The translations under genes were made by a program, and so were the position numbers. 64,000 bases of DNA, from NCBI RefSeq assembly GCF_964204645.1, contig NC_134027.1, forward strand, positions 17,136,560 through 17,200,559, in the 5' to 3' direction. This DNA is from Tubulanus polymorphus. Taxonomy: Eukaryota; Animalia; Nemertea. This document shows positions 16,038 to 47,699 of this stretch, one piece after another (the first letter of the stretch is position 1; every line of letters begins with the position of its first letter). The notes beneath the pieces were generated by a model. The model had not been told where the DNA came from and made no database searches. It saw nothing but the letters and a program-made list of their open reading frames with translations.

Positions 16038-16085
16038 AATCATTGAACTTCTAAAATCAATTTTAATAAAAAATTTAGTATTAAA

Positions 16086-19981: not shown

Positions 19982-20010
19982 TCAAATTTTAATAAAGATA
20001 TGTTATTAAA

Positions 20011-20361: not shown

Positions 20362-20378
20362 GAAAATGTGTAAAATAA

Positions 20379-21149: not shown

Positions 21150-21153
21150 ATAA

Positions 21154-21490: not shown

Positions 21491-21493
21491 TAA

Positions 21494-21715: not shown

Positions 21716-21739
21716 ATAAATAATTATTTTACTAAATTA

Positions 21740-22158: not shown

Positions 22159-22182
22159 TTAGTAATTTTTTTTGCTAAATAA

Positions 22183-22605
22183 ATGGATGATAATATTGAT
22201 ATTATTCCTCATGATATAAATAAAACTAAACTAAAAATATATTTAGAAAAACAAATATTAGAATTTGAAAGTGATTTAAAAGTTAAAAAGAAAAAATATT
22301 TAAAAAGTAAAATTATATATTATTTGATTATAAGTGGTTCGGTTACAATTAGTTCTGTAATAACATTTCTAGCAATATTTTCACCATTAACACCTTTAGC
22401 TATATCAATTGGCGTATTAGGATTAAGTTCAAGTGTTTTAACTGGTATAAGTTCAAAATTAAATATAAAAAGTAATAAAGAAAAAATTAAAACTAATATA
22501 AAAGAAATTAATAAATTAAAGAATACACTAGATTATATAATAAGTTTAAATGGCGGTATAACAGTTGAAGAACAAGATAAATTATTAAAAGAATTAATAA
22601 ATTAA
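22183..22605 (+). CDS. 140-aa two-TM/coiled-coil protein
   Basis: Two hydrophobic segments; paralog at 1494-1850. Confidence 0.75.
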   Translation: MDDNIDIIPHDINKTKLKIYLEKQILEFESDLKVKKKKYLKSKIIYYLIISGSVTISSVITFLAIFSPLTPLAISIGVLGLSSSVLTGISSKLNIKSNKEKIKTNIKEINKLKNTLDYIISLNGGITVEEQDKLLKELIN

Positions 22606-22624
22606 CAATTTTTTGATTATATAA

Positions 22625-23955
22625 ATGGTAGATAGTTTTCCAAAAGCTTTCTAATATAATGAATCAATTAAATATAATATTCCTGCAATAGATTTTAATA
22701 AAGATATTTCATATAGAAATGAAGTTTTAAATTCATTAATTGATTTATATATTTATGTTACTGAAACTAATTATTTTAATGTTAAGATGGAAAATATATT
22801 TCATGTGTATGCAATTAATTTCAAAAATTTAAATAAGGCAAAACAATGGTTATTGAAATCTAATATGAAGTATTGGCAGAACCAATTAAATTTTGCTGTT
22901 TATTGCGCAACAACAGGATGTGGAATTAGTTGGAATGATCATTTAAACAAACCAAGTTTACCATTGATGTTATCACTTTTTAGATTTCATACTTATTTTC
23001 AAATAAAATTAATATTAGATGAATTAGAATGTCCATTACCAGGTTCAAAATATTTTAAAGAATTGAATAATAATATTAATTTTCCTAAGTTTTATAAAAT
23101 ATGTAATGAATTTAATATTAATTCGAATAAAGATTTTTGAGCAAAAATTGGAACAATGGGTGGATTAGGAATATTATATACTAAAGAATTTGGAAAAATA
23201 ATGACAAATTCAGATATAAGAACACTAAATTGGAATGAATTACCAAAATATTATAATAATATACAACAACAAAATAATAATGGTTGGGTTTATTTCATTT
23301 TAGAAAATAGTGAAGGTTTTACTAAAGCTGGTATACAAAGAATAAATCAATCTATTAGAACTTATTTCATATGTATTTTAGGTGCGCAAGTTGAAACAAG
23401 ATCCCCAATAATTGGAAATGATAACACTTCATTCGATGCGCAGAAACAATTCAAAGTATTATTTGAAGATTCAATTCATAATGATAAAAATAGATCGATT
23501 CCAAAAAACATTGTAAGATATCAAAATTATTTAGATAAATCTCATGTAAGACTAAATTATTGTATAGGTCCTAATCTATTAATTATTTCTAATGATTTAG
23601 CATTAAAGATGGGAAATATAATTGGTTATAGTAATCTAATTAAAACTGCAACAATAAATAATTCATTTGGATTGAATGATATAAATAAAAAAATTATTAC
23701 TGCTCCAAAATTAATGGAAGGTGAAAAAAATAAAAAACATATTCAATCAACAGAAACTAAAACTAAGAATATTAAATTAAATGATTCTAAAATAAAAGAT
23801 TACAATACATCAGAAGATATTAAAACTGATAATACTCAACATGAAATAATAAAACTAAATGATGATGATAAATTTTATGAGATTTCATGAAAATGCTAAA
23901 TTAGCTATAACTTGTATAGGAATTGTTATAGGAGGAATATTATATTTTAAATTTT
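22625..23955 (+). pseudogene. ~440-aa conserved unknown protein with C-terminal TM anchor
   Basis: WQNQLNFAVYCATTGCGISW; present in three copies in the window; internal stops. Confidence 0.8.
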
Positions 23956-24731
23956 AATTTTTTATTATATAAATGGAAGAAGATATTCCAATGGATACTT
24001 TTGATGAACCCGGTATAAGTGATGAACCACAACCTGATTTTAATGAAACTAATATTGATAATGATGATGAATCAGCATATAATTCTAATTTAGCAGATAG
24101 TGGTGCTAAAGGCCCATCAACAGATGAATTTGATAGAAGAACTAGATCGAGAATAAATCCTGAAAATGAAAATCAAGGTTTATCAAGACAAGATTTAGAA
24201 TATAATAAAATTATTTATAAATTACAACCTGTATTTGAAAATTCTGGATATAATATAAATGCTAGAGGTGTTAGACTTTTAGTAAGAGAATTAAAACTTT
24301 AAGATAATGGTGAATATTATTATCATTTGAAAGATGATTATTATATTAATATCACTTATAAAAATCAAGTTAAAATATTAGCGGAATCAACTTTGGAAAA
24401 ATTAGAATCAGATAGAATTAAAAGAATAAGTATTAGTAATGAAATAGAAAATGTTACACAAGAAGAAATAAATCAAAATAAAATAGTATTTAAACAAAAA
24501 CATTAATGACTTATTTAAAACAATCAATAATAATTTAGAACCAGAAATGGAAGAGTATGGAGATCGATTAGATAAATTAAGATCTTCAACGCCCGAAACA
24601 TCGAGAAGAGGTATTCAACAAATGGGGCTCGCCGTCGCTATGGACACCAGGTGGCGTGTGTGCGTTAGTAGCCATCGCGTATCGACTTCCGCTCACTTCC
24701 GCGCTCGATTTCCTACTTTTAAATTGTAATA

Positions 24732-27529
24732 ATGTCAGAGAATTACGGGTCATGGACTGTACCGAAGCTGAAACAAGAGTTAAGCCGACGAGGTGCGGTA
24801 ACCTATGGGAGGAAAATCAACCTAATTGAAAGGTAATTTAAATGTCGATCATATTTCCATGCGGTTGATGGTGTTCAGTCGTTTAGTCTGCGCAAAAATG
24901 TTGCAATGATCATGGAATCAACAGTGATTTTTTGCCAAAATCATCGATGATTCTAGACCTATGCTCAAGTGAAATGAACGTGTTTTAATAGATCCAGAGA
25001 TGAAAGCTAAACCTCAGTGGGTTGTGGGTCAGGGTATAGTACAAGTTTACCGTCACCAGCCCGGGCTGCGAGGATGGCTATGGCCGGTCCCACGCGTCCC
25101 GTCCCGCGATATCTTTCATTATTTTTCGGTTTTCATGTCCGGAAAATAAACATAATGCACATAAAAGTCATCGATAAAACGTTTTTTAAATCACTATTTG
25201 ATATTATGATTGCCTTGAGAAGTTTAGATGGCAATGTTTATATCTTGAAATGTAGGGATTATTATCGGGATGTAGGACGCCTTGTCAGCTAACCATCGCA
25301 ACAGCTGAGTTACCACTGGCGCCATCTATCGAACATGAATTGAAGCTGATGCCAAATTTTACTGCCAATGTATCCATAAATCATTGGACATGTCTGCTGC
25401 TGTGTCTAGTCTCTATTGAATTTTTATATGTTATTGGAATTATAGTCAGAACCCTGATCAACTTGAGGTGACGGTAAACTGAATACCTTACTTATATACC
25501 TTCTTACCACAACACAGTTGAGTTAAATACAAATCTGTATGACCATGGACGTATAGACGTCCATGCTTGGAGTAATCATTTCGATGTAACATTTCAACTC
25601 TGGGTCAACTTTCTGTTAGTTGATTGAATGATTTTTGACATTAGATGTTTATATTTCATGATTATTTCGTGTTCATTGCAGATTAGAAGCATACGGCCGT
25701 AACAACGATTTTAGGGGACCGGCCATAACATTACCACAAGAAACAGTTCCGGAATGGCCCACATGCGGTTTCAAACAGCTTACAAATGATCATAAGATTG
25801 TATTGCCAAAATTCAATATTGACACAGTAACTGCATATTTCACGTATAGAATGGCAATGGACAACCACTGTACCAAAGACATTAAAGCTATTGAGAAGGG
25901 TCAGCAGCTCATAGAATCGCAACGTGTTCAAGCCTGCAGTATTCTCATCAAAAGCGGAATTGTTTATCTGACTGGATTAGTTGGTGCTGCTATGAAAAAA
26001 AAGGTAGGCCAGTTTTATATTTCATCAAAATAACACAATATTCCCTCCTTTAAATCCACATAAATCTGCAATACAACTGTATTCTTAAAAGGTTGTAATG
26101 TAGCAAACATTGTTGATTAGTTTATTTTTATATTTCATTGCAGATCTCATACTCGTACCAGATATCATTGTCTCAAACAACTGGTGAATTCAGAAACAGC
26201 CATTGTGAGTGCCCTGCCGGTAAGGGTCCTAATGGGACCTGTAAGCATGTCGCGGCTGTACTTTTGATGTTTGCTAATTTTGTGTCATCAGATGGGCCTA
26301 ACGCTCCCGAAATACTTAAATCGTGTACGGAAAATCTACAAACATTCCATAAGCCCAAGTCTGTTTATACTGGTAAGTTGTTTGGTTACATCGCCACCAT
26401 TCAGCAAATTCGTACCCTATATATCTTATTTTTTATAAATTCTGATGTAATGGCAATGTTTTACATAATGTACTTGGTTTTCAATTTTTAGCTCGGCTGT
26501 GACCTTGTTTAAATTTACCCGTCACTTCTTAACAGGTTCCCCTGTCAAGGCTGGTGACTTACCTCTATCAAAATCAAAGAAACGCGAGGTATCAATGGAG
26601 GATCCAAGGCCTGTGAAATACCGGAAATCAGCTGGATACGAGGATTATGTCCGGGGAATTGTCCTTAATTACTGCTCTGTATCGTCTTTAGACCTACCCA
26701 TCAAGTATAAGTACAAGAAAGCCGATATCAAAACAGCAGCAATTGACCATGATTATCTGAAAAAAACTTTGCTTGAATATTGGGTGGAAAACTCTATTAA
26801 GGTAAGTTTTTAATCAACGTGTCTGAGAGTGACCTATGTTATCCTTCCCTCTGTGCTTATAATTAATATTCCATTTTGCCTTTTCAGTTAAATGAAACAC
26901 AGGCAATATTACTAGAAAGGAGTACTAGGAAGCAGGCAGAATCTAGTCAATGGTTTCAGGAAAGGCAGCTACGATTAACTGCATCTCGTTTCGGTGAAAT
27001 TGTTTCGCTCACGAAAAGGCGCAATATCGACAAATTGTGTAAATCTCTTCACGATAATATTCCGTTGAGAAATGCTGCTGTTTGCCATGGAAAGACATTC
27101 GAAAGTAAGGCGATAGCGGCTTTTGAAGGTAAATTCTCCGTTAAAGTACAGCCTTGCGGACTTCATGTGAGGCCAGATATAGATTATCTAGGCGCGAGCC
27201 CAGATGGCCTTGTGTCTGAGGATGCCATTGTTGAAGTGAAATGTCCGTATCGCGGTAGAAATGAACTTATTGCTCCGGGGCCATACTTCAAGTTTCTTAG
27301 TGCAAAAGATAAGAAGCTGAAACGTTCGCATAATTACTATGATCAGATTCAAGGACAGTTGCATATTTGCAAACGGAAAATGTGCTATTTCGTTGTTTAT
27401 ACTCATAAGGACCTTTATGTAGAGAGGGTTTATCATGATCAAAAACACTGTGAACTATCTCTGCTTCCAAAATTAGAAATCTTTTATAGGAAGTACTATT
27501 CAAAGTATTTAACAATGCATGCGTTCTAA
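24732..27529 (+). CDS. SAP-SWIM-YqaJ (lambda-exonuclease-like) protein; 5 exons: 24732-24832, 25682-26003, 26144-26372, 26536-26801, 26888-27529
   Basis: GT-AG introns join in frame; WTVPKLKQELSRRG (SAP), CECPAG..CKH (SWIM), RLTASRF, GASPDG, EVKCP, YYDQIQGQL (YqaJ). Confidence 0.88.
25013..25521. mobile_element. Possible MITE in intron 1 of the YqaJ gene
   Basis: Perfect inverted AGTTTACCGTCACC/GGTGACGGTAAACT (~25044, ~25467) within a degenerate ~45-bp IR; TSD unclear. Confidence 0.45.
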
Positions 27530-28322
27530 AACATCTAGATTATTCCTGGAGATATAGATCGGATATTTTCCGAAGATTCCATAGTTTTTGGCATTAATAT
27601 CTTCATACAACTAAATTTGTAAATACATGTACATCCCAATTGTATGATATAGATTTCATGTCAATATCGGCTTACTATTTGTTGATACTTTTAAGTTTTA
27701 ATATTTTTTATCATCTATTATCAATATTTTTTATCATATATAGTTATTTCAAACAGATATACTTGTCAGGTTGTGTAGTTATATGCATAATTACTGACGA
27801 TGGTGGGTCAAAAGTTTGAAAATTAATGATTTACTCCTTTTCTGACCATATTTCATTACCATGATTATTTATTATTTCATTATGTGCTGCGCCTGACTAT
27901 GGCATGAATGCTTTAGTCCCAAAACTCAAACTCTTCCATTTTACATAAAATATCTGTGTTATCATGCATTTTAAAAAGATTTTATGTAGCGTTGTTGTAT
28001 TTTTGGTTTTTACCAGTTTTAAATCAATAAAAGGGTTTGTTACTGGAATGAAAATTAGTTTGTCCTTTGAATTGAAAACACTGCAAAAGAGTGGATTAAG
28101 TCAAAGTGAAATAGGTTATATTGCGCACAGATTTTGAATATCAACGACAGACAATTAATTACAGTCCAGGCCCATAATTGATATCTAAGAATTTGGGATT
28201 TACCTAAATAATCTATTAAGAGAAACAATGATGTTTCTTTAAAGCAGGGGTTTCGATGAATCTCAAAACAAAACTCAAAAATATATACTTTAGATATCAA
28301 TTAACAGACATTAACAATAAGG

Positions 28323-30025
28323 TTAAGCAAATTCGTTCACAATAGCTGGTCTGAAATTGCTTATACTGAAACAAACATAAACTATCCTAGAACCCATATT
28401 GACTTTACTAAGCGGCAGGTCTTTTTTCAAAATAAGAAAAGTTTTTGACAATCCGATTACTCTTTCTACTTGGATGCGTTTACTGGCTACTCTACGATCA
28501 TGAACTACTTGTTCAGGTTCAAGTTGACTCTTGCCCTTCAATAAAGTTGGGGTGTTCACCTTAATGTTCTTGGTAGCAAAAAGATCTTGTACCATTATAC
28601 CTCTATCGGCCATGATGCTGTCATTCGAGCTGAAGTATTTTGAGGTGTTTGAACACAGCTGGGATCGTTCAATGATTTGTCGGTCACTTGTTGAACCCGC
28701 ATAACTTTCACTTACATAACTAACGACCCCTCTCGGTGATATTCCAACCATAGTTTTAAGCGTGTTCTTATGTTTGTATGTGCTGAAAGTTGCAGTTTGA
28801 GATTTTACATTCGACGGCTTTTCAATTGGAATCTCTGTAGCATCTAAAATAACTCTGGTTGACGGAAAATGATGCTTAAAGCCACTGGGCATGAAACAGT
28901 CTATCTCTTCTCTCTCTGGCCATGTATTGATTTCACTTAATTGGAAATACATGAAGTTTACCCAGGTTAACACAATCCTAGAAACTACACTCTCTGATAT
29001 GCCGAACAGAATACTCAGTTCTATATCTTCCTTGGCACGCCTTAATTTGATTAATGTCAAGAAAAATTGATTGACCGGTGTTAGTTTCTGACATTTGTAA
29101 TTCAAATCGTACGCAGCAGGTCCTAGTACACTGAAAAACATCATCAAATGTTCATAGTCTTTAAAACTGGTGTAATATTTGATCGACCTAGGATCCACCA
29201 TAAATCTCTCGATACAGAAAAATTGATCTGAAAGGAGGGAACACTGAATATTCTTATCCAAGTTAGTGTTTTTATTGGTTGGTTCCTCTATTATGTCCAT
29301 TCTGTAATTGCTGGTATGTTGTAGGCCTATTTCAACTTCAGTGGCTATGTCATGGTGTACAGGTTCTTCCTCCAGTTTTAATCTTCGCCGACTGGCTCTA
29401 CTTTCTCTCTCTGAATCTGAGGAAACTGGTGGTGTGAAGGCAAATATACGCGGAATGGCATTCTCTTTTAATTTTCTTCTAGAACCTGAAACACATAAAG
29501 AAAAAAACATATTTCTACTCAAAGATCAACAGCTGCCAGTCAAGTCAACAACCTTTAAATTAAAAAGATAAATCTACCACATAAATTATTAGGCCTATTG
29601 TTGTTATTATCATAATTGAGTTATATCATTATCCTGTTATCAACAAACTACTATGATGATATGAAAATAAGCGCCTGGCTTTTTAAAAAAAGTTCAAAAC
29701 ATCGACATTGCATAATATCGATAGGCCCAAGCTGAGGCCTAAACGAATCAGCCTGCCTTGGATCTTGACCGCTTATTTCACCTTAGTTGGAAAACTCAAT
29801 AGGAAAGCCATATTTACCGGTAAGTGTCTGTTTATAGTCCGTTGGTAAAAAATGTCGATGGCATACGATAGCTGTATCCGATGGCTGCCATAATTTTGCA
29901 GATTTCTCGCTACTCTGTAGTCGTTTTATCGCAACAAGCCATTTCATTTTCAAATCTGTGTTCGTAGGGAACTTAAATCCGCCTACTCTTGACTTACAAA
30001 GGGGTACACAACAATAGCGAGGCAT
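28323..30025 (-). CDS. THAP plus HTH plus DDE_Tnp_4-type transposase; exons 30025-29818 and 29485-28323
   Basis: CCVPLC..FKFP..W..VCHRHF..LKENAIP (THAP); ILDATE, SYKH-like STYKHKNT, MADRG, RIQVERVIG. Confidence 0.92.
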
Positions 30026-31114
30026 TATAATAGATTCAAGCGCTTTTCAAATCGTCAATTCGCTCGAACGCGGAGATGAATAAAATGTTGTTTACAATTC
30101 AAATTCAAATCACTAGGGCCACTAACACGCGCGCGCCATCTCGCGGCAGCGCTCAGCGCGGCGAGCCCCATTGATAATGAGTCAATTACAATTAGTAAAA
30201 CATTTTGATAGCATGTTAGATACAGTTCATTCATTTGAAGAAGAGATGAATAGTGTTTTAGATACACCCGTTGCTGAAACTGGAATAAATCGAATACAAT
30301 CTTTACTAGAAAAAGGATTATTTGATTTAACTGGTGATGAATTAGAAGCATTTCCTGAACAAACGCGTAGAGAAATTAAAGGTATGCAAGAATCAGCTGA
30401 TAAAATTGCTCATGATAAAAGTATAAGAGATTTTAAAATTAGAACTTTGGAAAAAGACAGAACTGATAAAATTAAAGAAATAGAACAACTAAAATTAGAT
30501 AGAGATAATAAAGTTATTGAAGAAATCGAATTTAAAAAAAGAAATGCGTATTTAGAAAAAGAAAAAGATGATTTAGAATATTACAGAGAATTACAAAAAG
30601 AAGAAATTAAATTATTATTAAAATCATATGATTATAATATTAATAGATTAAAAGTTATTTTTAAAGATCTGTTGATAAAACCAAATTCTGAAATATCATT
30701 AAAAGATAGAATAAAATTATTATTTAAATTAGAAGGAATAACAATTCTTTCAATTCTAACAGCTGTAACTATGTTATTTACAACAATTGGTTTAGCTATA
30801 TCAAATTCTTTGAAATCTACACCAAATCCCAATAAACCGGATAAACCCCCAGATAATAATAATTCTATACAAGATAAAGTTAAAGATGGTTTAAAGAAAT
30901 AAGCAAAATATTTATTGGAACTATCTAAAAAATCTGCTGCAGCTTTACCCGGAGGTATTGCATCAATTGTTGGTTTTATATTGAAATCTGCAGGAAACAT
31001 TATTAACTTTGCTGCTGAACATATTATTTTATTTTTAATTACAGTTGTAAGTGCTATTATTTTTGGGTTAGTAAACATGATAAAAAATAAATAATTAATT
31101 TTTTCGTTAAATAA

Positions 31115-32364
31115 ATGAGTGGGAGTTATATCAATCCTTCTAAGAATCATAGAATATCTAATGCTATTAAAGCAGAAAGATCACATCATATAATTACTCA
31201 TAACCCTTCTAATATTAATCCTGAGGAAACTTTATTTGTTAGAATTCCTCGATTAACACATAATACTTTTTATGTTCCAAATAGTATTTATTTATCAGCC
31301 GATATAAAAGTAACCGGTAATAATAATAATTATGTTGTTGATAATGTTGGAAGATATTTGATTAAAAAATTAACAATAAAGATTGGCCCAGAAACAGTTT
31401 TCTCATTAGATGATTATAATTTATTTATGCATTATAAAGATTTATGGTTAAATAAAGAAAATAGAAATAATATGATATCTCAAGGCATCCAATCAGAAAA
31501 CAAAAATGAATTATGATCAGAAGCTGATAGCGCAATATTAACTAATGCTATAGATAAATTGATAAGAAGTATATATGGAAGCAAATATAAAATTCCATTA
31601 GACTTTGAATTGATAAATAATAATGCGCCTTTATATAAATACGCAATTCAAGAAGATATTATATTCGAAATAACATTTGCTCCTGTTAATGAAATTGTAA
31701 TATCTAGCGTTAATAAAGATATCGGTTAAAATTATAGAATATATGTTTAGACTGATTTAACTGTTTAAATGATGAAAATATTTCAAGTATAATTCAAACT
31801 CAATACAATCAAGGATTTTCATTATTATATGATTATATTGATAAATTTAAAACTGTAACTATTAATGCAAATGATGAAATTATTAATGAGAATATTAACT
31901 TCCCAAGAAGATCTATTAAAGGTATATTAATATTTTTTACCATTGCAACATATACTAATGGTGCAATAAATATTGATATTTATTATAATCCTGAAATAAC
32001 AAAAGTAGAAATAACTATCGAAGGAATAGCAAATAAAATATTTCGTCAAAGAATGAGAATGATTGATCAATGGCCAGAAATTAGAAAACATTTTATGAAT
32101 GAAAAAGTAAAATCATCTGAAAATTGTAATATTAATCGAATTGATTATTATACCGGTAATAAATACGCACTATGGTTAGATTTTAGAACAACAGAGGATA
32201 ATTCATTACATGGTTCTGGAAAAAAACTACAGAACACTAAAGATGGAATACAATTATTCATGACAAAGAATAAAGGAATCAAAAATTTTAAAATGCACAT
32301 TCATATTATATCTGACGCGCAATTAAATATTGTAAATTCTCAATTAAATAGTGTTATGTATTAG
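31115..32364 (+). pseudogene. Putative major capsid protein (double jelly-roll), frameshifted
   Basis: ~415 codons, beta-rich, NPSNINP..LFVRIP, LIKKLTIKIG, NFPRRSIKG, YALWLDF..LHGSG; second copy at 58790; fold inferred. Confidence 0.65.
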
Positions 32365-32396
32365 AATTTTAACTTTAATAAAAATTTATATAATAA

Positions 32397-33182
32397 ATGG
32401 AAGGAGGTAAAGTATATAAACATATTCCATACATCGATACACATGAAAATAATGATGGTTTATATTATGTAATACCTTGTAACATAGCTTTGATATTTGA
32501 TCCTATTTTCAAAATTTATAAAACTAAACTAATAGAAATCGATAATAATAAAAGTGGTGTTGTTGATAATTTAAGTAATGTAATTGATAATAATGTAATA
32601 CCTTCTACATCTAATAATGTAATACCTTCTACATCTAATAATGTAATACCTTCTACATCTAATAATGTAATACCTTCTACATCTAATAATGAAATAATAT
32701 TAAATATTAGTGAAAATAGAAATTATTGTGATTATTGTAAAGGTAAATTTTCAAACGCTCCATCAAATTGGAATAAACATATGAATACAAAGGTACATAT
32801 TACTAATGTTATAGAACGTGTTGGTTTAAGAGAATTTATAGAACACCCATTTAGATATGTTACAAAGTTTGTTTCAAATAAAAAAGTAAATGGTAAAGAA
32901 TTATATGAAGATTTATTATTAGCAACTCCTAATAAAGATGAATTAGATTTAACCGATGCTAATAAAATATTAGGATCAAACATTGTAAATGAAATATTAG
33001 GAGCAAACACTAAGAAAGATGATAATGAAAATATAGTTACAGATAAGCATATTGATATTAAAGAATATGTGGACACACTTTTGGTGAAAGATAAAGAAGA
33101 AACTATTGATGATGCGGTAGAAAGGATGAATAAGTATAACATTAAAACAACTATTGATGATAATACGGTAATAAATTGTTAG
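32397..33182 (+). CDS. Unknown protein with C2H2-like Zn finger and (NNVIPSTS)x4 repeat
   Basis: CDYC..HMNTKVH; 24-bp tandem repeat at ~32588-32690. Confidence 0.7.
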   Translation: MEGGKVYKHIPYIDTHENNDGLYYVIPCNIALIFDPIFKIYKTKLIEIDNNKSGVVDNLSNVIDNNVIPSTSNNVIPSTSNNVIPSTSNNVIPSTSNNEIILNISENRNYCDYCKGKFSNAPSNWNKHMNTKVHITNVIERVGLREFIEHPFRYVTKFVSNKKVNGKELYEDLLLATPNKDELDLTDANKILGSNIVNEILGANTKKDDNENIVTDKHIDIKEYVDTLLVKDKEETIDDAVERMNKYNIKTTIDDNTVINC

Positions 33183-33331
33183 GGTCTGATAGTGAAAGTG
33201 ATTAAAATATTAATTATATTTAACTCAAATAATATTATTGGTTGAAAATTGTATAAAATAATAGTAAATAAAAAAGGGGGTTTTAAGTATTTAAGGTATT
33301 TAAGGTATCTAATACATAGGTATATAAATAG

Positions 33332-33931
33332 TTATTTTATAAATTTATATTCATATGGAAATTGTAATCTCAGTAATAATTTTGAACCTTTATTATTCTT
33401 TAATTTATTCAGTAACTCAGTAGGTATAATTTGATTTTCTTCCAATGATTGTTGCATAGATTTTCTATCTTTGTTATAAAATAAAACTAGAAATCTTATA
33501 TTCTCCCTAAAGTCTTTAACAATTGAATTATATTTTTGAATTAAAACCCATGTTGTTATCCCAAAATGTCTCCCAGAGAAAGCTAAATAACATAACTCAC
33601 TTTCTCTCACTTTTGAATCATGTAAATTAGCGCAATCATCTATAATGAATAATGTATTTGATCCTTTTTAAGTATCAATTGCTATTTTAATACAATTATC
33701 TGAATTTTCTTTTACTGTTTTAGAATCTAATATAATAAACTTTTTTATCTTAACTATATCTCTATTATATGTTTTATTCATTTCATAAGTGGGGCAGAAT
33801 AATATTATATTATCAAAATGATTCTTATAAATAGTTTCGAACAAATCTAATATGAAATGTGTTTTACCACAGTTGGTTACACCAGTAACTAACATATTAT
33901 GCGGTTCAAATATAAATAAATCTTTATTCAT
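33332..33931 (-). pseudogene. A32/FtsK-like packaging ATPase (one internal stop)
   Basis: Walker A GVTNCGKT, Walker B LFIIDDC, GRH..Q motif. Confidence 0.9.
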
Positions 33932-35015
33932 TTATTCTTTTAATTTTACTAGATAAAATCCATTCATTAAATCTATCATCATATCCTTTATATTTCACCA
34001 AAGAATACTTTTTTCCTTTAAGAGTTTTTGTTTTCAATACTTTTTCTATTTTGTGTTCTATTTCATCTGGATTTGGTACAAGTGATAATTCTTGTTCATA
34101 GAAATAACCTAATATTTCTTCATCTTTTAGATATTCTAGTTTATAAACAAATGGTTTAGTTAATATTATCTTCTTAATCTTGAATATTTCTTCTGTAAAA
34201 TTAGGGGTATAACCTTTATAAAATGTTTTTCTATATTTAGATATTCTTACGTGTTGTCCTATTTTAAATTTAGGTTCGACAAAATCATGTGTAACAAACG
34301 CGCCATATAAATTATTCCAAACTATTTCTGAATTATCTTCTTTTCTAGCTTGGTTAGGTTTCATATTTATAGAACTATGTTTAGAATTATTATAACCTTT
34401 CACTAAATCATCTAACACATCGATATATTCATATGTTTCATTAGCAGTAAAATATTTCCACATTCTAGTTTTCAATGTTTTATTAAATCTTTCTATAATA
34501 GATGCTTTTTTATCTGAATGTGTTGAAAAATACTCTACATCGTTATCAGATAATAGTTTTTTAAAATGTTTGTTATAGAATTCCTTACCTTCATCAAATT
34601 GTATGTTACCTGGAATTGCTTCTTTAAATATTGATTTAAAAGCATTTGTCACTTCTATACCAGTTTTCTTTTTGATTGGAATTGACCATGCGTATCTACT
34701 GAATATGTCTATAACATTTAATATCCAGAAATATCTTTTGTTGTATTCTTCTAAGTTCTTCATGTCAATTAAATCAGCTTGCCATTGTTGATCGATATAT
34801 GAAACCATAACTTTTCTTGTTAAATAAGTTTTATCCATTTTCTTGTGGATTTGATATGTTGGTTGATTTTGTAACCATGATTTTAATTCACTATATTTTA
34901 TAATACCATCTTCTTTATCAGATTTAATTTTATCCCATAATTCTGAAACGTTAGAATATGATACTTCACTTTCTGGGTTATAATATAACTCTCTTAAATA
35001 TTGTTCTTTTTTCAT
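33924..35015 (-). CDS. int: Retroviral-like (rve) integrase with C-terminal chromodomain
   Basis: WQADLID, IDIFSRY, QFDEGKEF, IERFNKTLK, LVKYKGY..FNEW; uninterrupted 363 aa. Confidence 0.95.
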   Translation of the reverse strand: MKKEQYLRELYYNPESEVSYSNVSELWDKIKSDKEDGIIKYSELKSWLQNQPTYQIHKKMDKTYLTRKVMVSYIDQQWQADLIDMKNLEEYNKRYFWILNVIDIFSRYAWSIPIKKKTGIEVTNAFKSIFKEAIPGNIQFDEGKEFYNKHFKKLLSDNDVEYFSTHSDKKASIIERFNKTLKTRMWKYFTANETYEYIDVLDDLVKGYNNSKHSSINMKPNQARKEDNSEIVWNNLYGAFVTHDFVEPKFKIGQHVRISKYRKTFYKGYTPNFTEEIFKIKKIILTKPFVYKLEYLKDEEILGYFYEQELSLVPNPDEIEHKIEKVLKTKTLKGKKYSLVKYKGYDDRFNEWILSSKIKRINE

Positions 35016-35019
35016 CTTA

Positions 35020-35389
35020 TTTTAATCCATTAATAATAATTTATATTTAGTTTCAATGGTTTTATGATTTGACTTATTTTCTGGTATGATAGGTTTATTA
35101 TCGGAATCATTATTGTTATAATCAGATTTATACTTATATTTATATATTACGCCGGATAATATAATAATTGTGATTAACCCAATTGTACTATATAAGTAAT
35201 TATTTCTTCCACTATTAGAAGAATTATATGGATTATTTGAATTAATATCAGATAATTTCTGTGATTCATTGATATCAGTTAATTTCTTTTTCTTAGCTTT
35301 TTTTTAAATTCTGCAGATCTTTTACCTAATTCTCTTGCCCATTTAATTTGTTTCTCGGATCTAACCTTTTTCTTAACGCCATCACTCAT
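35020..35389 (-). pseudogene. Small basic protein with TM segment
   Basis: MSDGVKKKVRSEKQIKWAREL...; paralog begins at 62226. Confidence 0.55.
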
Positions 35390-35398
35390 TTATTTTAG

Positions 35399-35995
35399 TT
35401 AGTTTTTGTTCTGATTCATTGTCTGTTTCACCGTTTGGTTGTAGTTCGTTTCGTGTAGTTCTGTTTCGTTCTTACCTGATTTATATTCCATAGGTTTGAT
35501 ATTCGAAAATGTTATGACACCAGTAGAAATTAATGTCATAACCGGCCCTAATTGAAATGAAGCATATCCAACCCATTTTTGTAATTCAGTCATAACTAAG
35601 TAGTCATTTTTCAAATCACTATATAATTTATTTTCATCATCAATTGGTATTAACCGGTTACATAACTTAGAGTATCATTTGACAATACCATCTGAAATAG
35701 AATCATTTATTCGGGCTAATCTTGCCTCTTCATGAATCTTAAAATATTTTATTACTTTATCTGGTTTCATAGCATCTAATTCTTGAAAAGTTATTATTTT
35801 TCCTAAGAAATCCTTAGATTTCCCTCCAGCAATTAACAATTCAAGATGGTGCTTACAATTTAAATAGTATTCATAATCTATATTACAATTAACTTGAGCA
35901 CAATTAGTTACAACTGTATCTTTATTATCACTTATACCCAAATCATCTAATGTCTTTTCAATATCAATACTATTCTTACACGATTTCTTTGACAT
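35399..35995 (-). pseudogene. Unknown ~200-aa Polinton protein (internal stop)
   Basis: Two in-frame ORFs; paralog at 61689-62280. Confidence 0.7.
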
Positions 35996-36303
35996 TTATA
36001 TTGGAGAAAAAAGCGAAAAAAATATAAGTATTATAAAATGATACCAGCATCTCTTTGGGTTAATACTAGTTAGTTAAAGGTAAAGAATTTTAGTATTAGT
36101 TATTGTTTTTTTTAGTATTTTTTATTTGTGATATAAAGTATTCTCTTTTGAAAAGAATTGTAAAAGAAAATATTAAAAATTAAAATAGAAATAATGGCTA
36201 GTTGAAGGTATGTAATTTTTAATATATTTTATTTGAATTCTATTTGATATCTCACTACTTTTGTTTATCTATTAGGAGCAGTAATTATAACGGTCCAGAT
36301 AAG

Positions 36304-36987
36304 TCATTTCGGATCCTTGATATCAAATTCCTCAACGTATTGTTCATTATTTGGATTATTATTCCATTGATCAATAAATTTCTTTGCCTTTGTTAACTGT
36401 TCTAAATATAACTGTAAATCTAGTTTATTAGATTTGATTTGATTTTCTTTCTTTTCAAGAGGTCTTAAATTTTTCCAATTCCAAATAAGTTTTTTATTGT
36501 ATTCATCATTCATGTTAAATTCAGATATCGGTAACACGTGATCAATATGAAAATAATCTCCATAATTATCTATATTCATTTGACTATCGAATTGAAATAT
36601 AATCCATGATTTGAGAAATTTATCTGTACAACCCAACAAATTAGATAGTGTTTCTGAATGTGTTTCTTTGTTGAATAATTGTGTTAATCTAGTCCTTAAA
36701 CATTGTTTCAATCTAAAATTAAGATCTGTTTGATATCTTTCTCTCATATATTCTGTCATATAATCATCATAAGCTTCTCTATTATCTTCTCGATATTGTT
36801 TGGTTTAAAGTTTAAAACAAGTTTTACAGCAATATTGAAAACCATCTTTGCTCATCTTACGCTTACTAAATTCTGTTAAAGCTAATTTATCTAATTCACA
36901 CTTAGTACATTTCGTATACATATAGTATATATTTATGACACCAGTGTTATTTGTAATATTGATAGTTTGTGGTTGTTCTGGTTCCAT
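36304..36987 (-). pseudogene. Zn-ribbon plus HNH-like endonuclease
   Basis: CTKC..CKTC; HIDHVLP...NWKNLRPLEKKEN..K; frameshift near 36800. Confidence 0.75.
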
Positions 36988-36989
36988 TT

Positions 36990-37770
36990 ATTATACATAT
37001 TTTTTTACTAAATTGGTTAATATTTTAGAATCCTCTTCCATTTCTTCGACCAACGTCATCCTTTTTCATTCCTCGTTGCTTTTGATAAGTCGTTTCGATT
37101 CCTTGATATCTAAATCATACCACTAGGCAAGACCGGGCATTCAGGCCCGGTTTGGATCAATGCGCATGCGCTAATCATAATTATATATTCATTCTGTAAA
37201 TTCTGTAAAATAGAAACAACACATGCGTTACATGCGTCACATGCGGCCATTTATGGTCGGTTTTGCTTAATGCGCATGCGCTAATCATAATTATATATTC
37301 ATTCTGTAAAATAGAAACAACTGAACATAGAAAATTCAAACGCATTCATGTCCCCGTCACATGCGTTACATGTGTCAGTCACATTCGGCCATTTATGGCC
37401 GGTTTTGCTTAATGCGCATGCGCTAATCATAATTGAAACGACCGAACATAGAACATTCACCAAGTAGATTTACACAATACATATACAAGTATGTTCAGTC
37501 GTTTCTTCCAATACATCATTTGATTTCTATATATACAATTTATAATTACAAACATTTTTTCAATTGCTGGTAAATATTTAACTACATCAACAAATGTTAA
37601 ACTTAATCATTGGAGTCTTAATGTTTTTGAAATTCTTATATAGTTTCTTCGTCGATCTTTCGTGATTCTTGTGGTTCTACACCAGTTTCTATTGGTTGGT
37701 CTTCCATTGCTGTCTAATCCTCAGAAAGAGTATCTTGAGTTTCTCTATCACTTCTTGATTTGTATGACAT
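36990..37770 (-). pseudogene. Small unknown ORF interrupted by a Helitron
   Basis: Frame ..YWKKRLNILVYVLCK|WYDLDIKESK.. is restored by removing 37123-37468. Confidence 0.55.
37123..37468 (-). mobile_element. 346-bp non-autonomous Helitron
   Basis: Minus strand 5'-TCTAC...ACCGGGC-loop-GCCCGGT-CTTGC-CTAG-3', inserted between A and T with no TSD; three internal repeats. Confidence 0.75.
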
Positions 37771-37929
37771 TTTATTCAACTAAAAGATATCAGCGGTAGA
37801 ACAGGAACTACGATATTAAATGATATAAATATTTTCAAGTCTATCGTTTCTAATTATTATAGTTCAAGTTATTATCTATCTAACGTAAAATAGAATTAAC
37901 TGTATGAAGTTGTAGTTGTCAAATGCACT

Positions 37930-38410
37930 TAAAGGTTTTATATTTAGTAACCCCTTTCCCGACTTCTTAATAACAACAAAAAACAGTACTTACATTTAAT
38001 TCAAGAACCGGAAACTATTAATTATTACGCAATAACCCCCGTCTACTGTTATGGTAACTCTAGCTATCTAAAAGATATACAAAATACACTTCAATATATC
38101 GAAAGGTTTCATATTTAATAGCCCTAATAACTACAAAAACAGTACTTACATTTAGATTTAGAATTGTAAACTATAAACTCCTAATTGCGCTTCGAGAATA
38201 GAGAATATCCTAAGCGTTATGTTACACCATCTATTCAGTTCCGGTGCGATTTCTAAATGAACGCGTCTGCGATTATGACACGTCATCTAGTTCCGGTACA
38301 CCTTCTAGAATGTTCTACGCGTTTGCAGTATTATGACATGTCATCTCTATTCAGAGTTCCGGTACACCTTCTAGAATGTTCTACGCGTTTGCAGTATTAT
38401 GACTCATTTG
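37930..38410. promoter_or_regulatory. Direct-repeat region next to the right TIR (putative enhancer/origin)
   Basis: Duplicated AAAAACAGTACTTACATTTA block; three AGTTCCGGT...ACGCGT..GCA..ATTATGAC units. Confidence 0.4.
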
Positions 38411-38532
38411 TCTCGGCGTTATAGTAACAGCTGTGACAGCTGTGAATTTATAGATTTATTCCATAGCTTTTTACATGAAATGTATATAGGCTCAAATAGA
38501 ATCATGTTCTAGTATAAACAGCTATGTATTAT

Positions 38533-38535
<3 letters not shown>

Positions 38536-38611
<76 letters not shown>
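38536..38611. repeat. (TA)n microsatellite at the inner edge of the right TIR
   Basis: Seen directly. Confidence 0.98.
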
Positions 38612-38614
<3 letters not shown>

Positions 38615-39005
38615 TTATTTCAATCACACTTTACTAACACTTTTAATGTTTAAAAATCTAACTCATACAAATATAAATATTGAAATATGTTTAAAATATA
38701 TCTATATATCTATTCTATAAGAGCTCGTTAATTACTCGTTACTTTTATATTGAATAATCTATCAATTTATATGTTATTCATGTAAATTATGTTTATATAT
38801 GAATATTTTAAGAGTAATAGGGGTTTAGTTGTTCTAGGTTAAAGGTTGAATGGTTGAGAAATTTTCCAAATGTGAAATAATAATAATTTCTACTTGAATT
38901 AGGAGTGTGCGCGACAAATTCAAGTAGAAATTATTGTTATTTTCACATTTGGAAAATTTCTCGACCGTTCGACCTTTGGCTTAGAACAACTAAACCCCTA
39001 TTACT
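38605..39005 (-). repeat. Right TIR (38813-39005 self-complementary)
   Basis: Inverted copy of 15637-16037. Confidence 0.95.
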
Positions 39006-40429
39006 AGGGTCGACTATTATCAGACCTTATATATTAAATATCTTATTCCCAGTCTCCAGAGACAGGTTCTTAAGATCATAGCGTGCATCGCTGTAGGGTT
39101 TCCGATCCATATAATTGAATTTGAATTGGTGCGGTGGCGCTCTCAATGCGGAAGTTTTTGTCATTCCGAATTTTTCAGTCGGCGACGGGCAAAAGGTAGA
39201 AAGTTTCTTTTGTCTAATGTCGTATAGCGCCACCGCGGTCGAAAATCGAACTTATCTGTCAAGTCGATAATTTTGTAAGTGAGAAGACGCCGCGTTCAGT
39301 TCGCAGTACACTGTACGTACAGTTTTTCGATACACGGCTGTTCAACAAATTTGTTTTGAAGTTGAAGTTCACAGCGCGCTATTCAGTTTGCAGAAGTAGA
39401 GGGCTAAAATAACATCATTCGTAAGATCTCAGATTGAATATTTTCATCAGATTCAGAGCTCAGTTCATTGTATAAAATGTGTCATTTCATGTATTAGACA
39501 GTTACTTCTATTACTCTGACAGGAGCTTTTATGTCATAATTTTTTTACCTCATGTGTAACTCAATTATAGCAGAGTTGATAGTTTAATTATCAATTATTA
39601 ATTTATAAATAAATTAGTATTATTAATTTAATTATTGGATTGATTATTAATAAGAGATATGACAGAGACATAAACATATATATAATGCAAAGATATGGAT
39701 GTTATATATAATGCAAAGATATGGATGTTATAATGATAATGTATTTCTACTCGCATAGAAATGTTTAGTTTTTAGCGATGCAGCGGAACTAATAAGGAAC
39801 ATTTTGATATTTAACATGACCATAGTACACTATCCCTGATGGAATAATAAGCTCCACTCGACAAACTCGTTCCCGTGCATTTTTATCTCTGTTTCAGCAC
39901 ACACCCCTCTATCATCAATGCCTAACCCCTGTTCGACCAACTTTGGGCGTTTTCCTTTGAAATATAAGCCTAATTGTAAAAGATAAGCATTAACCTAAGT
40001 TAATGCTGCATCTTAATCGTGAAACCTAAGAAAGATTATTTTATTATTTAGCCCTATTCAAATTTTCTATCCACTACCACGTGGAAAAAAGACCCAGTCA
40101 AAATTGTGCATCACGCTTTGACTAAGAAATTGGTTCCAGGCTATAAAATTTACGACTCAAACGAATCTTTTTCTCAAAAAAGCCGCCTTTAGTTTGATGC
40201 AAAATGTCATTTGCTTTTAAAATGTGTAACTAGGCCTAATCAAAAGGATATTTCAAAAGCAAACTTTGCCGGGTCAAGAGCTATATTGAATTCAATTTTT
40301 TCCGAACCATTATGCCTCTTTCATCATAACATTATTTATCCTATTTCAAGATCTTAAGTAAAGAGATGGCCTACGTCGGGTTCAAATCGGAATTTTAAGA
40401 TTTATTTCATTTAATTCCAGGTTTTCACT

Positions 40430-44986: not shown

Positions 44987-47699
44987 TATAGGTTTATTAA
45001 ATTTCATTGACGTTCTATTTAATTTTACTGCTGTTAAATAATCTTTAAATCTTTTATTTCCTAAGTGTCTAGGACTTGATTGTAAATGTCTCAATCGTTC
45101 AGAATTATTTATTAATTCAATATCATTTCTATTTCTAATATTTTCATGTGTTTATCCATAAAAACTATTATTCATTAATTTAAAAAAATCTTTTTCAAAA
45201 TCTGTTTTAGATATTGTTCTCTGTTGAGTATTGAAATCTATATATTTTTCTAACCACTTCGATTGATTAAATTCAAATATATCTATGTACTTTTTAAAAT
45301 TTCATTCCTTGTTTTAGATAAAATCTTAACATTCTATGATGAACAATATAATTATATTTATTATTTTGTGTTAATATTAATTTTTCTGTAAAAACATGGT
45401 CTTTCGGTTTTTTTTTCTGATATTCACTTAGACAACTACAATCTACGGCTAAATGTTCTGGGCAATAAGGTAAGTTTCATGTTTTAAACTTTATATTATC
45501 AGGATATTCTAAATCAACTACAAAAAAATAACCAATTGGAGCATCATCTTCTAAACTCATAGATGCGTTTTCCCAATTAGTTTTGTCATCATTTTCAACT
45601 CCTGTTTATGTAAAAATTTTATATGTTTGAGGTTGCATCATTGCCCAACCATATAAATTATTGGCGTCAATATGTAATAATTTATATTCATCATTTGCTT
45701 TAAAATACCTATCTCCCATCACACCACTAATTCCACCTCTAATCGATTTTTCAAATAATAAAACAATGTCTGGTTATTTTACTAAATCTAATTCTACATT
45801 TGTATTTATATTTTAAACCACCTTGCCAAGTTAAACCAGGACTTGAGTAGCAATAACAAGGATCACAATTAAAATGATTTGTCATAACTATTCTTTTATT
45901 TTTGTTTAATAATTGTGCAAAATCACTTTCTAATTCAATTATTTTATTACAAAATTCATTTACTACATCTTCACCCCTATAAGAAATATATTGACTTTCA
46001 TATAATTCAGGATAATTTGATTTTATATAAATTCCATAAGCACCAGCTCTTTGATGAACTTTTTTAATCGTATTTATGATTGGTGGGTCTTGAATTAAGA
46101 CATCATTTAATTCATTTCCTATGTCCATTGATTTTAAAAATTGCTTTTTGTTATATATTTCTTTTCTATCTTGATCAGTTAATTCTTTATTTAACGATTC
46201 AAAATCCCCATAAATTACAAATGGCACTATATATTTAAATTTGTAATTAGTAAGTTTATGTTTTAGTACGCATTTTCTGTCATAAATTTAGATAAACATT
46301 TTCTACATAGATAAATTTTATGATGGTGATCACGTTCTGTTCTAAAGAATAAACCTATTTGTTTTAACCACATATAATGTTCATTTTCATCTTTTTTGTA
46401 ATAAAACAAATCTGTAACATTTCCATCATCATAATATTCTGTTAAAAATAAAACTTCTAATGTATAATCTGTAATATTTCCACCTTTTGTCTCTGGTAAT
46501 TGCATTAATTCGAATTCATTTATTTCTAAATTATTAACTTTTTCTATTTTAGGAATCATTTTTATAGTTACTGGATATTGATCAATTTTATATAATGTTT
46601 CATATTTCCGATAATCTGTTATTCTACAAACATTTTCCTGAGTTGGGTGTAAGCAATTAATAAGTGACCATAGAAAACATTTATTAACTTCATTTTGAAC
46701 ATTTATTACCGCTTTTGTTGTAAACGGTAATTTAATATAAGATGATGCTTTAATGTCCTTTTCTGTTGTAAAGTTTGAATCATTTTTAAACATTTGCTTT
46801 ATTCCTTTTTGTATTATAAATATTTAAATCTAAAAATATAATTTCATTCAAAGTTAAACCAGAACCCTCAAAATATCTTTCTTTAATATGACGTTTAAAT
46901 TCATTTTATATTTTATCTAATTTCTCTTTTATTTGTGTTTTTGAAATGATTTCTTCAGAATGTGTTTGAATTATATATTCTATTTTTACTTCTGATTTTG
47001 TAAAACTTACTTTTCCAGAAATACTAATTTTTGGATATTCAACATCTGTTACAAGGTCCATTATTTTTTCCATTATTTCAATATATTTGCTATAATCTTC
47101 CATTGTTGAACCTTTAAAAAATCTAAATATAATAGCTGCAGGACCAATTTTACTACTAATGTTTCTGAAAATTGTATCTTTTTTTTAATGAATCGATATA
47201 AATTTCTTTCTGTATTTTTTAACATTTTCCATATAAGGTTTATTTGAAATAGATTTAGTTTTTGAAACTATTTTTTTTTTAACTTGTTGAGGTTTATCAT
47301 CAAAATATTCTGTTCCTAAAATATTTTCATTCAAATTTTGTTTGTGTTTTTGTGATTCGAGATGTCTTTTATAATTTTTTTTTTTGCTATAAATTCATTA
47401 CAAACATCACATTCAATTTTATCTTTCTTCATATCATTTAATCGTTCTTTTCTTTCATTAGAATTTTCTGGAGTTTCAAAATCTATAACATTTTTTTTTA
47501 TGATTTGCAGTTTTTTCATGTCGAAATTTTTGAGATTCATCGATGTATTTTTTACAATATGGGCAATAATATTGATTTTTATTAACATCAATTTTTTCTG
47601 TCTGGAAATCACTGTCTCCCATTTATAAGTAAAAAAATTACTTGTGGTGATTTGTCGACCTCTCGACCTCTGATCTGAAAGCGCACTTTTCCAATTACT
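44987..47699 (-). mobile_element. polB: Polinton-like remnant 3: diverged pPolB pseudogene (47622-44987) and terminus
   Basis: KCFLWS, PFVIYGDFES, SSPGLTW, IDANNLYG, KLMNNSFYG, KFNKPI; internal deletion near 45880; ends TCGACC..TCGACC..CCAATTACT at 47699. Confidence 0.9.

What the first reader, a model, noticed from the sequence alone, without database searches (positions are those of the whole stretch)
38813..39005. Polinton ends are long fold-back hairpins with strand-specific G-T wobbles: candidate self-priming telomere
Seen: the outer 193 bp of each TIR (15637-15829; 38813-39005) is itself an inverted repeat, AGTAATAGGGG...CCCCTATTACT, with ~90-bp arms and a GAGTGTGCGCGA loop. Counting only differences shared by both TIR copies, the arms differ at 7 substitutions plus one 1-nt bulge. 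All 7 form G-T pairs on the strand whose 3' end is the terminus and A-C mismatches on the other strand. Because both TIRs share them, they predate integration. Known: canonical Polintons are thought to use protein priming from simple TIRs, whereas snap-back 3' hairpins prime parvovirus replication. Inference: the folded 3' end pairs flush with the inner AGTAAT and could prime copying of the whole genome, or form a cruciform or structured RNA. This would imply a non-canonical replication/excision mode.
Basis: partly seen in the sequence, partly recalled or inferred. Interest (0 to 1): 0.85.

Follow-up and report, generated by a model that had tools for sequence, protein, structure and literature searches.

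The report
Fixed-orientation hairpin ends on a Polinton
Each end of this virus-like jumping gene (a Polinton) is a 193-base palindrome whose seven shared mismatches are all G-T pairs on the strand with the free 3' end; the family keeps it in one orientation and keeps the motifs of its protein primer, so it likely serves as a folded starting site on single-stranded ends rather than as a parvovirus-type flip-flop telomere.

Summary
Observation confirmed: 193-nt flush palindromes at both ends of a 23.4-kb Polinton (6-bp TSD); the 7 shared substitutions are all G·T on the 3'-end strand. It is a family trait. A diverged copy in the window (122 nt) and a relative (L004, 257 nt) have flush hairpins of other length and sequence. 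Between the two window copies both arms changed together at 8 sites, while three wobbles (27, 28, 35 nt from the tip) stayed. No A·C occurs on the 3' strand in three complete hairpins, but 'wobble only' is not general (3 of 5; 3 of 8), and one end lacks the hairpin. Reads show many insertion sites, no free MITE and no 50:50 flip/flop. The polymerase keeps its terminal-protein serine and vOTU residues. Best reading (0.45): a folded 3' end that restores a duplex origin for protein priming. Self-priming with asymmetric resolution: 0.22. A 2026 preprint already proposes hairpin priming for protist virophages/PLVs, and this scan noted similar ends on other DNA (17 notes, at least 10 genomes).

The parts
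15637..39005 (.). Whole Polinton copy E1 (23,369 bp including a nested transposon); ends 5'-AGT...ACT-3'
15631..15636 (+). Left target-site duplication AGGGTC
39006..39011 (+). Right target-site duplication AGGGTC
15637..16040 (+). Left TIR, 404 bp
   Evidence: I3; 5 differences to the right TIR
38602..39005 (-). Right TIR, 404 bp, ending inward at a (TA)n run
15637..15829 (-). Left terminal palindrome; the minus strand carries the 3' end and the G·T form
38813..39005 (+). Right terminal palindrome; the plus strand carries the 3' end and the G·T form
38901..38916 (+). Hairpin loop (centroid structure); its core is kept in the same orientation in E2 and in read joints
   Evidence: table 5c
38963..38981 (+). 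Outer-arm core with wobble positions 25-43 (family-wide ones at 38979, 38978, 38971); two direct GGTCGA-type motifs when read from the tip
38837..38855 (+). Inner-arm core, partner of the above (T at 38839, 38840, 38847)
16086..17510 (+). N-terminal piece of pPolB: two zinc fingers, TP-type domain (residues ~136-256, Ser241 at 16806-16808), vOTU domain (Cys307, His406)
17507..19981 (+). Rest of pPolB, broken into pieces by stops and frame changes; endonuclease VII-type HNH insert near 17876-17992
   Evidence: (PF02945 E 1.5e-5; PF03175)
31115..32364 (+). Major capsid protein gene, in pieces
   Evidence: PF16903 E 6e-4, under the curated cut-off
33332..33931 (-). A32-type packaging ATPase, two pieces
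   Evidence: PF04665
33924..35015 (-). rve integrase with chromodomain
   Evidence: PF00665 E 1.4e-8
24624..30179 (.). Nested insertion (DDE_Tnp_4 transposase and a YqaJ-like gene); borders approximate, from the gap in the match to the third copy
11532..11653 (+). Terminus of a second, diverged copy E2: flush 122-nt hairpin with the same three wobbles and loop orientation
47645..47699 (+). Terminus of a third copy E3: outer-arm-like sequence only, no long hairpin, 77 nt from the pPolB start

Best explanation
The palindrome is a conserved, fixed-orientation end structure of this Polinton family, and it likely folds on the 3' end of single-stranded genomes to restore a short duplex origin from which the element's terminal protein would prime new synthesis. 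Shown: the hairpin is flush with the tip, recurs in diverged relatives with both arms changed together, has no A·C pair on the 3' strand in three complete examples, occurs in one orientation, and sits in elements that keep TIRs, AGT/ACT ends, a 6-bp TSD and a polymerase with TP-serine and vOTU motifs. Inferred: (1) strand-displacement replication or excision exposes a full-length single strand; (2) its last 100-250 bases snap back locally, doing the job that the long-range TIR panhandle ('racket') does in the standard model; (3) TP-primed synthesis starts on the tip, displaces the inner arm and copies through, so no nick is needed and no flop isomer arises; (4) the inner arm also templates repair of a nibbled 3' end, as in Streptomyces telomeres, and such copying or template switching keeps the arms alike; (5) the three kept differences make the outer and inner arms distinct as duplex binding sites, and G·T is the form of difference that costs the folded 3' strand least.
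For: Flush hairpins at 3 of 3 complete termini types: E1 193 nt, E2 122 nt, L004 257 nt; L001 holds an inner arm of the same polarity. E1 vs E2, first 50 nt: 8 sites changed in both arms, 3 in one arm, hypergeometric p 7e-7. Five partner-site variant pairs in reads, unphased. Transition mismatches on the 3' strand: E1 7 G·T/0 A·C, E2 3/0 (shared with E1), L004 3/0. One orientation: same polarity in E1 left, E1 right, E2, L001, L004 and the outer arm of E3; about 90% of read depth at the inner end runs on into element sequence (1386 to 1249), and none of the six positions of the three kept wobbles is among the 40 variant rows shown of 79. Ser241 in 78 of 79 aligned rows, Cys307 78 of 78, His406 76 of 78; in the model Ser241 lies between the second helix (215-239) and last strand (244-256), the place given for linking residues in 10.1101/2024.03.18.585575 section 6; the two domains match LF/PAD (Z 8.0, rmsd 3.0, 103 aligned) and vOTU (Z 7.4, rmsd 3.5, 99 aligned), as that paper reports. 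Precedent for a fold-back 3' overhang used with TP priming and end repair: PMC5449611.
Against: No experiment or free genome was seen; folding in vivo is inferred. A flush recessed 3'-OH is a good primer for any polymerase, and nothing found here would stop its extension. TP motifs are needed at open duplex ends under the self-priming model too, so they do not exclude it. In L004 only 3 of 8 stem substitutions are G·T and the two DNA strands fold equally (-69.5 vs -69.4); in E2 3 of 5. E3 has no long hairpin, although its 77-nt tip-to-ATG distance suggests a deletion. Template switching homogenises inverted-repeat arms without selection (PMC8604942 abstract), so co-variation alone does not show function. 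Fold Z-scores of 7-8 are middling by the tool's own note.
Confidence: 0.45

Rival explanations
1. Self-priming with asymmetric resolution. The folded 3'-OH is extended directly and gives a closed-end duplex; TP priming from the other end makes a dimer bridge; the kept arm differences let a nuclease (candidate: the endonuclease VII-type HNH insert of the polymerase, or the integrase) act on one arm only, so one orientation is kept, as at the left end of MVM-type parvoviruses.
For: 3' end pairs flush in all complete hairpins; G·T polarity favours the 3' strand; HNH insert with Cys/His/Asn motif in 7 of 7 full-length relatives examined and in the window; asymmetric dimer resolution with a flip-only left end is described in PMC1185569; same priming model proposed in 10.64898/2026.07.28.741278; 65 reads change strand at 15727/15732.
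Against: No HUH/Rep nickase was found among the ORFs scanned. HNH inserts occur in other pPolB2 Polintons for which no hairpin is mentioned (PMC10748475: 0 occurrences of hairpin or palindrom). The preprint links palindromes mainly to non-pPolB elements. The strand-change reads can be a subfamily with a more perfect palindrome or a library artefact.
Confidence: 0.22
2. By-product. A copy-back event once duplicated the end; template switching keeps the arms alike; the kept differences matter only as duplex binding sites, and the G·T polarity comes from strand-biased deamination (C to T and A to G on one strand both give G·T).
For: Arm homogenisation by template switching is known. Six of 7 wobbles are T in the inner arm; 3 of 7 are at CpG. 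Four of the 7 vary in the family (position 43 is a normal pair in 662 of 971 reads, position 70 in 558 of 1492). E3 lacks the hairpin.
Against: The hairpin persists in relatives at 66-70% polymerase identity (L001, L004) although long palindromes are unstable (PMC7999016 and PMC3855049, abstract starts). Template switching also inverts spacers, yet the loop keeps one orientation. Flanking DNA shows no CpG depletion (o/e 0.94-1.18 in 3 stretches) and 4 of 7 wobbles are not at CpG. In strand displacement the 5'-end strand is the one exposed longest, which predicts the opposite polarity (inference).
Confidence: 0.18
3. RNA structure. An outward transcript from the TIR reads the 3'-end strand and folds into a 60-120 bp G·U hairpin that acts as terminator, small-RNA source or decoy.
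For: Strand difference is larger with RNA parameters and holds in all three hairpins (E1 -134 vs -104; E2 -82.8 vs -71.3; L004 -117.3 vs -103.0). G·U bias is the usual mark of RNA stems (own knowledge). The polymerase's N-terminal fingers resemble zf-met/JAZ fingers.
Against: The fold is flush with the DNA tip to the base, which an RNA does not need. Whole blocks are gained or lost in both arms, which needs DNA-level copying. Genes next to both ends point inward. No Rfam match.
Confidence: 0.1
4. AAV-like hairpin transfer: one nick opposite the old 3' end moves the hairpin to the new strand.
For: Flush 3' hairpin at both ends.
Against: It must give two isomers in equal amounts. All six termini seen have one polarity, and reads allow at most about a tenth of inner-type arms at host junctions.
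Confidence: 0.03

Closest known systems
Palindrome-ended endogenous virophages (subtypes 1, 2, 5, 6) and PLV subtype 4 of Halocafeteria seosinensis (bioRxiv 10.64898/2026.07.28.741278; passages and section 7 read)
   Same: Palindromes inside TIRs next to the TSD in rve-integrated double-jelly-roll viruses; hairpin priming proposed.
   Different: There 52 nt in the example and mostly with non-pPolB replication genes; here 122-257 nt in a pPolB Polinton with TP and vOTU motifs. The text read says nothing on mismatch polarity, arm co-evolution or isomers; its supplements were not seen.
Polintons/Mavericks (adintovirus-like) with pPolB2-type HNH insert (PMC10748475, PMC8097293 passages; 10.1101/2024.03.18.585575)
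   Same: pPolB with TP-vOTU, rve integrase, ATPase, MCP, TIRs, 6-bp TSD, AGT...ACT ends; best viral fold match is Drosophila-associated adintovirus 2.
   Different: Those texts give simple end motifs and contain no occurrence of 'hairpin' ('palindrom' also 0 in the two where it was asked); here the outer half of the TIR is a fold-back.
Streptomyces telomeres (PMC5449611 passages)
   Same: 5' terminal protein plus a palindromic 3' single strand that folds back, templates repair of lost end bases and is then opened for TP priming.
   Different: Bacterial; several short palindromes, internal origin with end patching, Tap/Tpg proteins; no integrase. A functional analogy, not homology.
Parvovirus terminal hairpins (MVM/LuIII; PMC1185569 passages; AAV recalled)
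   Same: Flush 3' hairpin with kept mismatches; MVM left end has one orientation.
   Different: Needs the HUH nickase NS1/Rep, not found here; AAV-type ends give flip and flop, not seen here.
Poxvirus hairpin telomeres (PMC8956199 abstract)
   Same: Imperfect terminal hairpins whose mismatches are kept and matter.
   Different: Covalently closed, flip-and-flop, role in packaging; not integrated.

Membership tests
Polinton/Maverick | Protein-primed PolB gene | tested here: met
   PF03175 hits; pieces match intact relative P0002 over residues 8-998 and 1045-1363; broken in this copy
Polinton/Maverick | rve integrase and 6-bp TSD | tested here: met
   PF00665 E 1.4e-8; TSD AGGGTC
Polinton/Maverick | TIRs of 100-1500 bp with AG(T)...(A)CT ends | tested here: met
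   404 bp, AGTAAT...ATTACT; not the exact (AGT)2 motif of PMC8097293
Polinton/Maverick | Packaging ATPase and major capsid protein | tested here: met
   PF04665 above cut-off; PF16903 E 6e-4, under cut-off
Polinton/Maverick | Adenovirus-like maturation protease | tested here: inconclusive
   No Pfam protease hit in the ORFs scanned; broken or short ORFs may hide it
Protein-primed replicon | TP-fold domain with Ser/Tyr between last helix and strand, followed by vOTU with Cys and His | tested here: met
   sequence and predicted structure only
Protein-primed replicon | Protein covalently bound to 5' ends | not testable with these tools
   needs free genomes
AAV-type rolling-hairpin replicon | Flip and flop isomers in equal amounts | tested here: not met
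   one polarity in 6 termini; read bound about a tenth; integrated copies only
Parvovirus-type rolling-hairpin replicon | HUH/Rep nickase gene | tested here: inconclusive
   none among the ORFs scanned against Pfam; several ORFs have no family
Independent MITE | Copies with host DNA on both sides | tested here: not met
   all window matches lie at Polinton ends; about 90% of depth runs on into element sequence at the inner end; no whole genome was held
Rfam RNA family | Match above gathering score | tested here: not met
   0 matches in 38000-39200

The most novel reading that the evidence does not exclude
A hybrid replication mode in an animal-type Polinton: the 3' hairpin self-primes, the terminal protein fires only at open ends, and the polymerase's built-in endonuclease VII-type domain resolves the resulting dimer bridge asymmetrically, guided by three conserved G·T sites, so that a single orientation is integrated. 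This would join protein priming and rolling-hairpin replication in one element and give the unexplained nuclease inserts of pPolB2 enzymes a job.
Probability: 0.15. Interest if true: 0.85.

Novelty: new variant of a known kind. Interest (0 to 1): 0.52.

Why it matters
How Polintons leave the chromosome and start replication has never been shown; the standard picture is a long-range TIR 'racket'. A flush, co-evolving, strand-polar, single-orientation hairpin in an element that still encodes a terminal protein narrows the options to a few that short oligonucleotide assays and long reads of free genomes can tell apart. It also extends palindromic ends from protist virophages/PLVs with other replicases to pPolB Polintons.

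Tried and rejected
No whole genome was held and the loci had no searchable genome, so termini could not be collected genome-wide. Viral contigs gave nothing: terminal pattern 0 hits; protein queries 0 confirmed of 3, 111 and 6 candidate stretches; a looser pattern gave 36 loci, none with an inverted repeat of 40 nt or more, so these were dropped as chance. Of 6 metagenome loci one holds a full terminus (L004), one an inner arm (L001), two start too near the gene (L002, L003), L006 shows no inverted repeat, and L005 has a different one. Three genome-contig loci (L007-L009, 26-29% identity) showed no terminus. No RNA holder listed. The sigma-70 scan is not relevant to a eukaryotic element. CpG decay after insertion rejected: shared by both TIRs, none of the 5 TIR differences is a transition, flanks not CpG-depleted. 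A hidden 2-nt end extension paired to the inner flank was considered and dropped because the inner flanks of E1, L001 and L004 differ. The strand-change joint at 15727/15732 (65 reads) could not be assigned. Look-up of the terminus among earlier scan notes by sequence found nothing.

Full report
1. Observation. The element runs from 15637 to 39005, with the 6-bp duplication AGGGTC on both sides and 404-bp TIRs that differ at 5 positions. The outer 193 bp of each TIR is a palindrome that starts at the first base. The arms differ at seven positions common to both ends (25, 27, 28, 35, 39, 43, 70 from the tip) and one bulge. On the strand whose 3' end is the terminus all seven are G·T; on the other strand all are A·C. 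As DNA the 3' strand folds at -79.1 (right) and -77.5 (left) kcal/mol against -68.6 and -67.1 for the 5' strand; 0 of 200 shuffles come near (z -19.9). Seven of seven on the named strand has probability 0.008 if all changes were transitions and 2.5e-5 under the spectrum seen between two copies.

2. The element. Pfam finds pPolB pieces with an endonuclease VII-type insert, an A32 ATPase, an rve integrase with chromodomain and, weakly, a major capsid protein. A DDE transposon is nested inside. The polymerase, ATPase and capsid genes are broken in this copy. No protease was found. The best viral fold match of the N-terminal piece is an adintovirus protein. The host was not determined; an invertebrate animal is likely (inference and the surrounding repeats).

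3. Other termini. A second copy in the window (E2, 89% identical in pPolB) ends at 11653 in a flush 122-nt hairpin. Over the first 50 nt, E1 and E2 differ at 8 sites in both arms at once and at 3 sites in one arm (hypergeometric p 7e-7), and E1 has about 35 more bases in each arm. Yet the wobbles at 27, 28 and 35 and the loop orientation are the same. E2 also has an A·A and a T·T, so 3 of its 5 stem mismatches are G·T. Of 6 metagenome loci, L004 carries a flush 257-nt hairpin beside an intact polymerase (P0002, 66% identical): 3 G·T, 0 A·C, 3 C·T, 1 A·A, 1 G·A and small indels in the first 85 or so positions; its DNA strands fold equally (-69.5 vs -69.4), its RNA strands do not (-117.3 vs -103.0). 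L001 begins inside a hairpin and has an inner arm of the same polarity. A third window copy (E3, tip at 47699) has an outer-arm-like sequence but no long hairpin and only 77 nt before the polymerase start, where E2, L001 and L004 have several hundred bases and a small gene; a deletion is likely but not shown. Counting shared sites once, there are at least 9 transition-type mismatches, all G·T on the 3' strand (0.5^9 is about 0.002; my arithmetic).

4. Reads. Raw reads of a run with the same species label (X6; about 12 in 100 of the run read) give depth 871 just inside the tip against 4.4 on the flank, and 402 loose ends at the tip agree at only 0.38, so the family has many insertion sites (similar). 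At the inner end depth falls only from 1386 to 1249, so about nine tenths of inner arms run on into element sequence. That rules out a free MITE as the main source and bounds flop ends at roughly a tenth. Of 79 variant rows at 8% or more, 40 were shown (lowest about 20%; the ranking rule is not stated); none is at the six positions of wobbles 27, 28 and 35, so a 50:50 flip/flop is not present, but alleles under about 20% are not excluded. Five pairs of partner sites vary in complementary ways (15653/15813, 15662/15804, 15715/15752, 15716/15751, 15718/15749), unphased. Against a general wobble rule: position 43 is a normal pair in 662 of 971 reads and position 70 in 558 of 1492, so four of the seven wobbles belong to this subfamily only. 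Sixty-five reads change strand at 15727/15732; these may be a more perfect palindrome, snap-back DNA or an artefact. These reads come mostly from integrated copies and say little about free genomes.

5. CpG decay. Three of seven wobbles are at CpG, four are not; flanking stretches have CpG o/e 0.94-1.18; the wobbles are shared by both TIRs and by E2. Decay after insertion does not explain them. Older strand-biased deamination is not excluded.

6. Priming machinery. In an alignment of 80 sequences (the window piece, 72 chosen of the 150 hits listed for having sequence upstream of vOTU, and 7) Ser241 is kept in 78 of 79 rows, Cys307 in 78 of 78 and His406 in 76 of 78; in the 20-sequence alignment all three are invariant. 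The model (pLDDT 85) puts Ser241 between helix 215-239 and strand 244-256, where 10.1101/2024.03.18.585575 places TP linking residues (section 6 read). Residues 145-261 match the LF/PAD domain of Y-family polymerases (Z 8.0) and 292-415 viral OTU (Z 7.4), the two folds that paper assigns to TP and vOTU (passages); the Z values are middling. P0002, next to the L004 hairpin, has TP, vOTU, exonuclease, HNH and polymerase motifs intact. Hairpin-ended members have therefore not given up protein priming at the sequence level.

7. Mechanism. Any model must explain a flush fold, a preference for the 3' strand, arms that copy each other, a few fixed asymmetries, one orientation and a retained TP. The simplest is that the 3' end of a displaced or excised single strand folds locally and gives the duplex origin that the standard model gets from pairing the two TIRs (that model as summarised in the figure legend; adenovirus panhandles recalled). 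TP priming then needs no nick and makes no isomer, and the inner arm can restore lost end bases, as shown for Streptomyces (PMC5449611 passages). Its weak point is that the recessed 3'-OH could simply be extended. If that is the normal route, a dimer bridge must be resolved on one arm only, as in MVM (PMC1185569 passages); the fixed asymmetries and the HNH insert would fit, which is the main rival. Template switching can homogenise arms without selection (PMC8604942 abstract), which keeps the by-product reading alive, but it also inverts spacers, and that is not seen. An RNA role is untested. Confidence: 0.45, 0.22, 0.18, 0.10; AAV-type transfer 0.03.

8. What is known. bioRxiv 10.64898/2026.07.28.741278 reports palindromes in TIRs next to TSDs in protist virophages and one PLV subtype and draws the hairpin-priming model, mainly for elements without pPolB (supplements not seen and could show mismatch patterns). 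The texts of PMC10748475 and PMC8097293 contain neither 'hairpin' nor 'palindrom'; nor does PMC12721341; PMC11296320 mentions hairpins only for poxvirus ends. Six searches on Polinton, Maverick or adintovirus ends showed no paper on wobble polarity or fixed orientation in a pPolB Polinton; subscription papers, Kapitonov and Jurka 2006 and Repbase entries were not read. Earlier notes of this scan describe similar ends in other genomes (17 notes in at least 10 genomes); my reading was on record before I saw them and I did not test theirs.

9. Verdict. Real, family-wide and probably functional; a new variant of Polinton end rather than a new replication class. The new points are the kept G·T polarity, the single orientation and the co-occurrence with intact protein-priming motifs. 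Interest 0.52.

Noticed in passing
window:8430-8545 and window:57260-57385: The same ~30-nt palindrome with a shared upstream stretch occurs twice in tandem at both places, inside or beside Polinton remnants.
   Followed up: no
L005:656-1025: In a distant relative (37-39% identity) an inverted repeat of 54-nt arms lies between pPolB and a divergent gene whose homologue sits near the right end of E1; could be a circle or head-to-tail junction, or another gene order.
   Followed up: partly
window:19996-20361: A small unknown gene lies after pPolB in E1 but between the terminus and pPolB in E2, L001 and L004.
   Followed up: no
window:38963-38981: The conserved core 25-45 nt from the tip resembles a nuclear-receptor DR1 site (recalled motif, no call) and lies where adenovirus ITRs carry host-factor sites (recalled).
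   Followed up: no
window:16086-16400: The polymerase begins with two matrin/U1-type zinc fingers (zf-met, under cut-off; fold neighbours TUT1 and JAZ), a class known to bind duplex nucleic acid (recalled).
   Followed up: no
L007-L009; P0004: Polinton-type polymerases lie on contigs or records labelled Sedimenticola and Sulfurimonas; likely host DNA in bacterial bins.
   Followed up: no
window:15840-16046: Many reads skip about 185-200 nt of the inner TIR, so subfamilies with shorter TIRs (like E2) are common.
   Followed up: partly
window:24624-30179: Nested DDE_Tnp_4 transposon with a YqaJ-like gene inside E1.
   Followed up: no
window:6222-7253, 14190-14990, 63154-63966: Reverse-transcriptase remnants, one with GIY-YIG (Penelope-like), between the Polinton fragments.
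   Followed up: no
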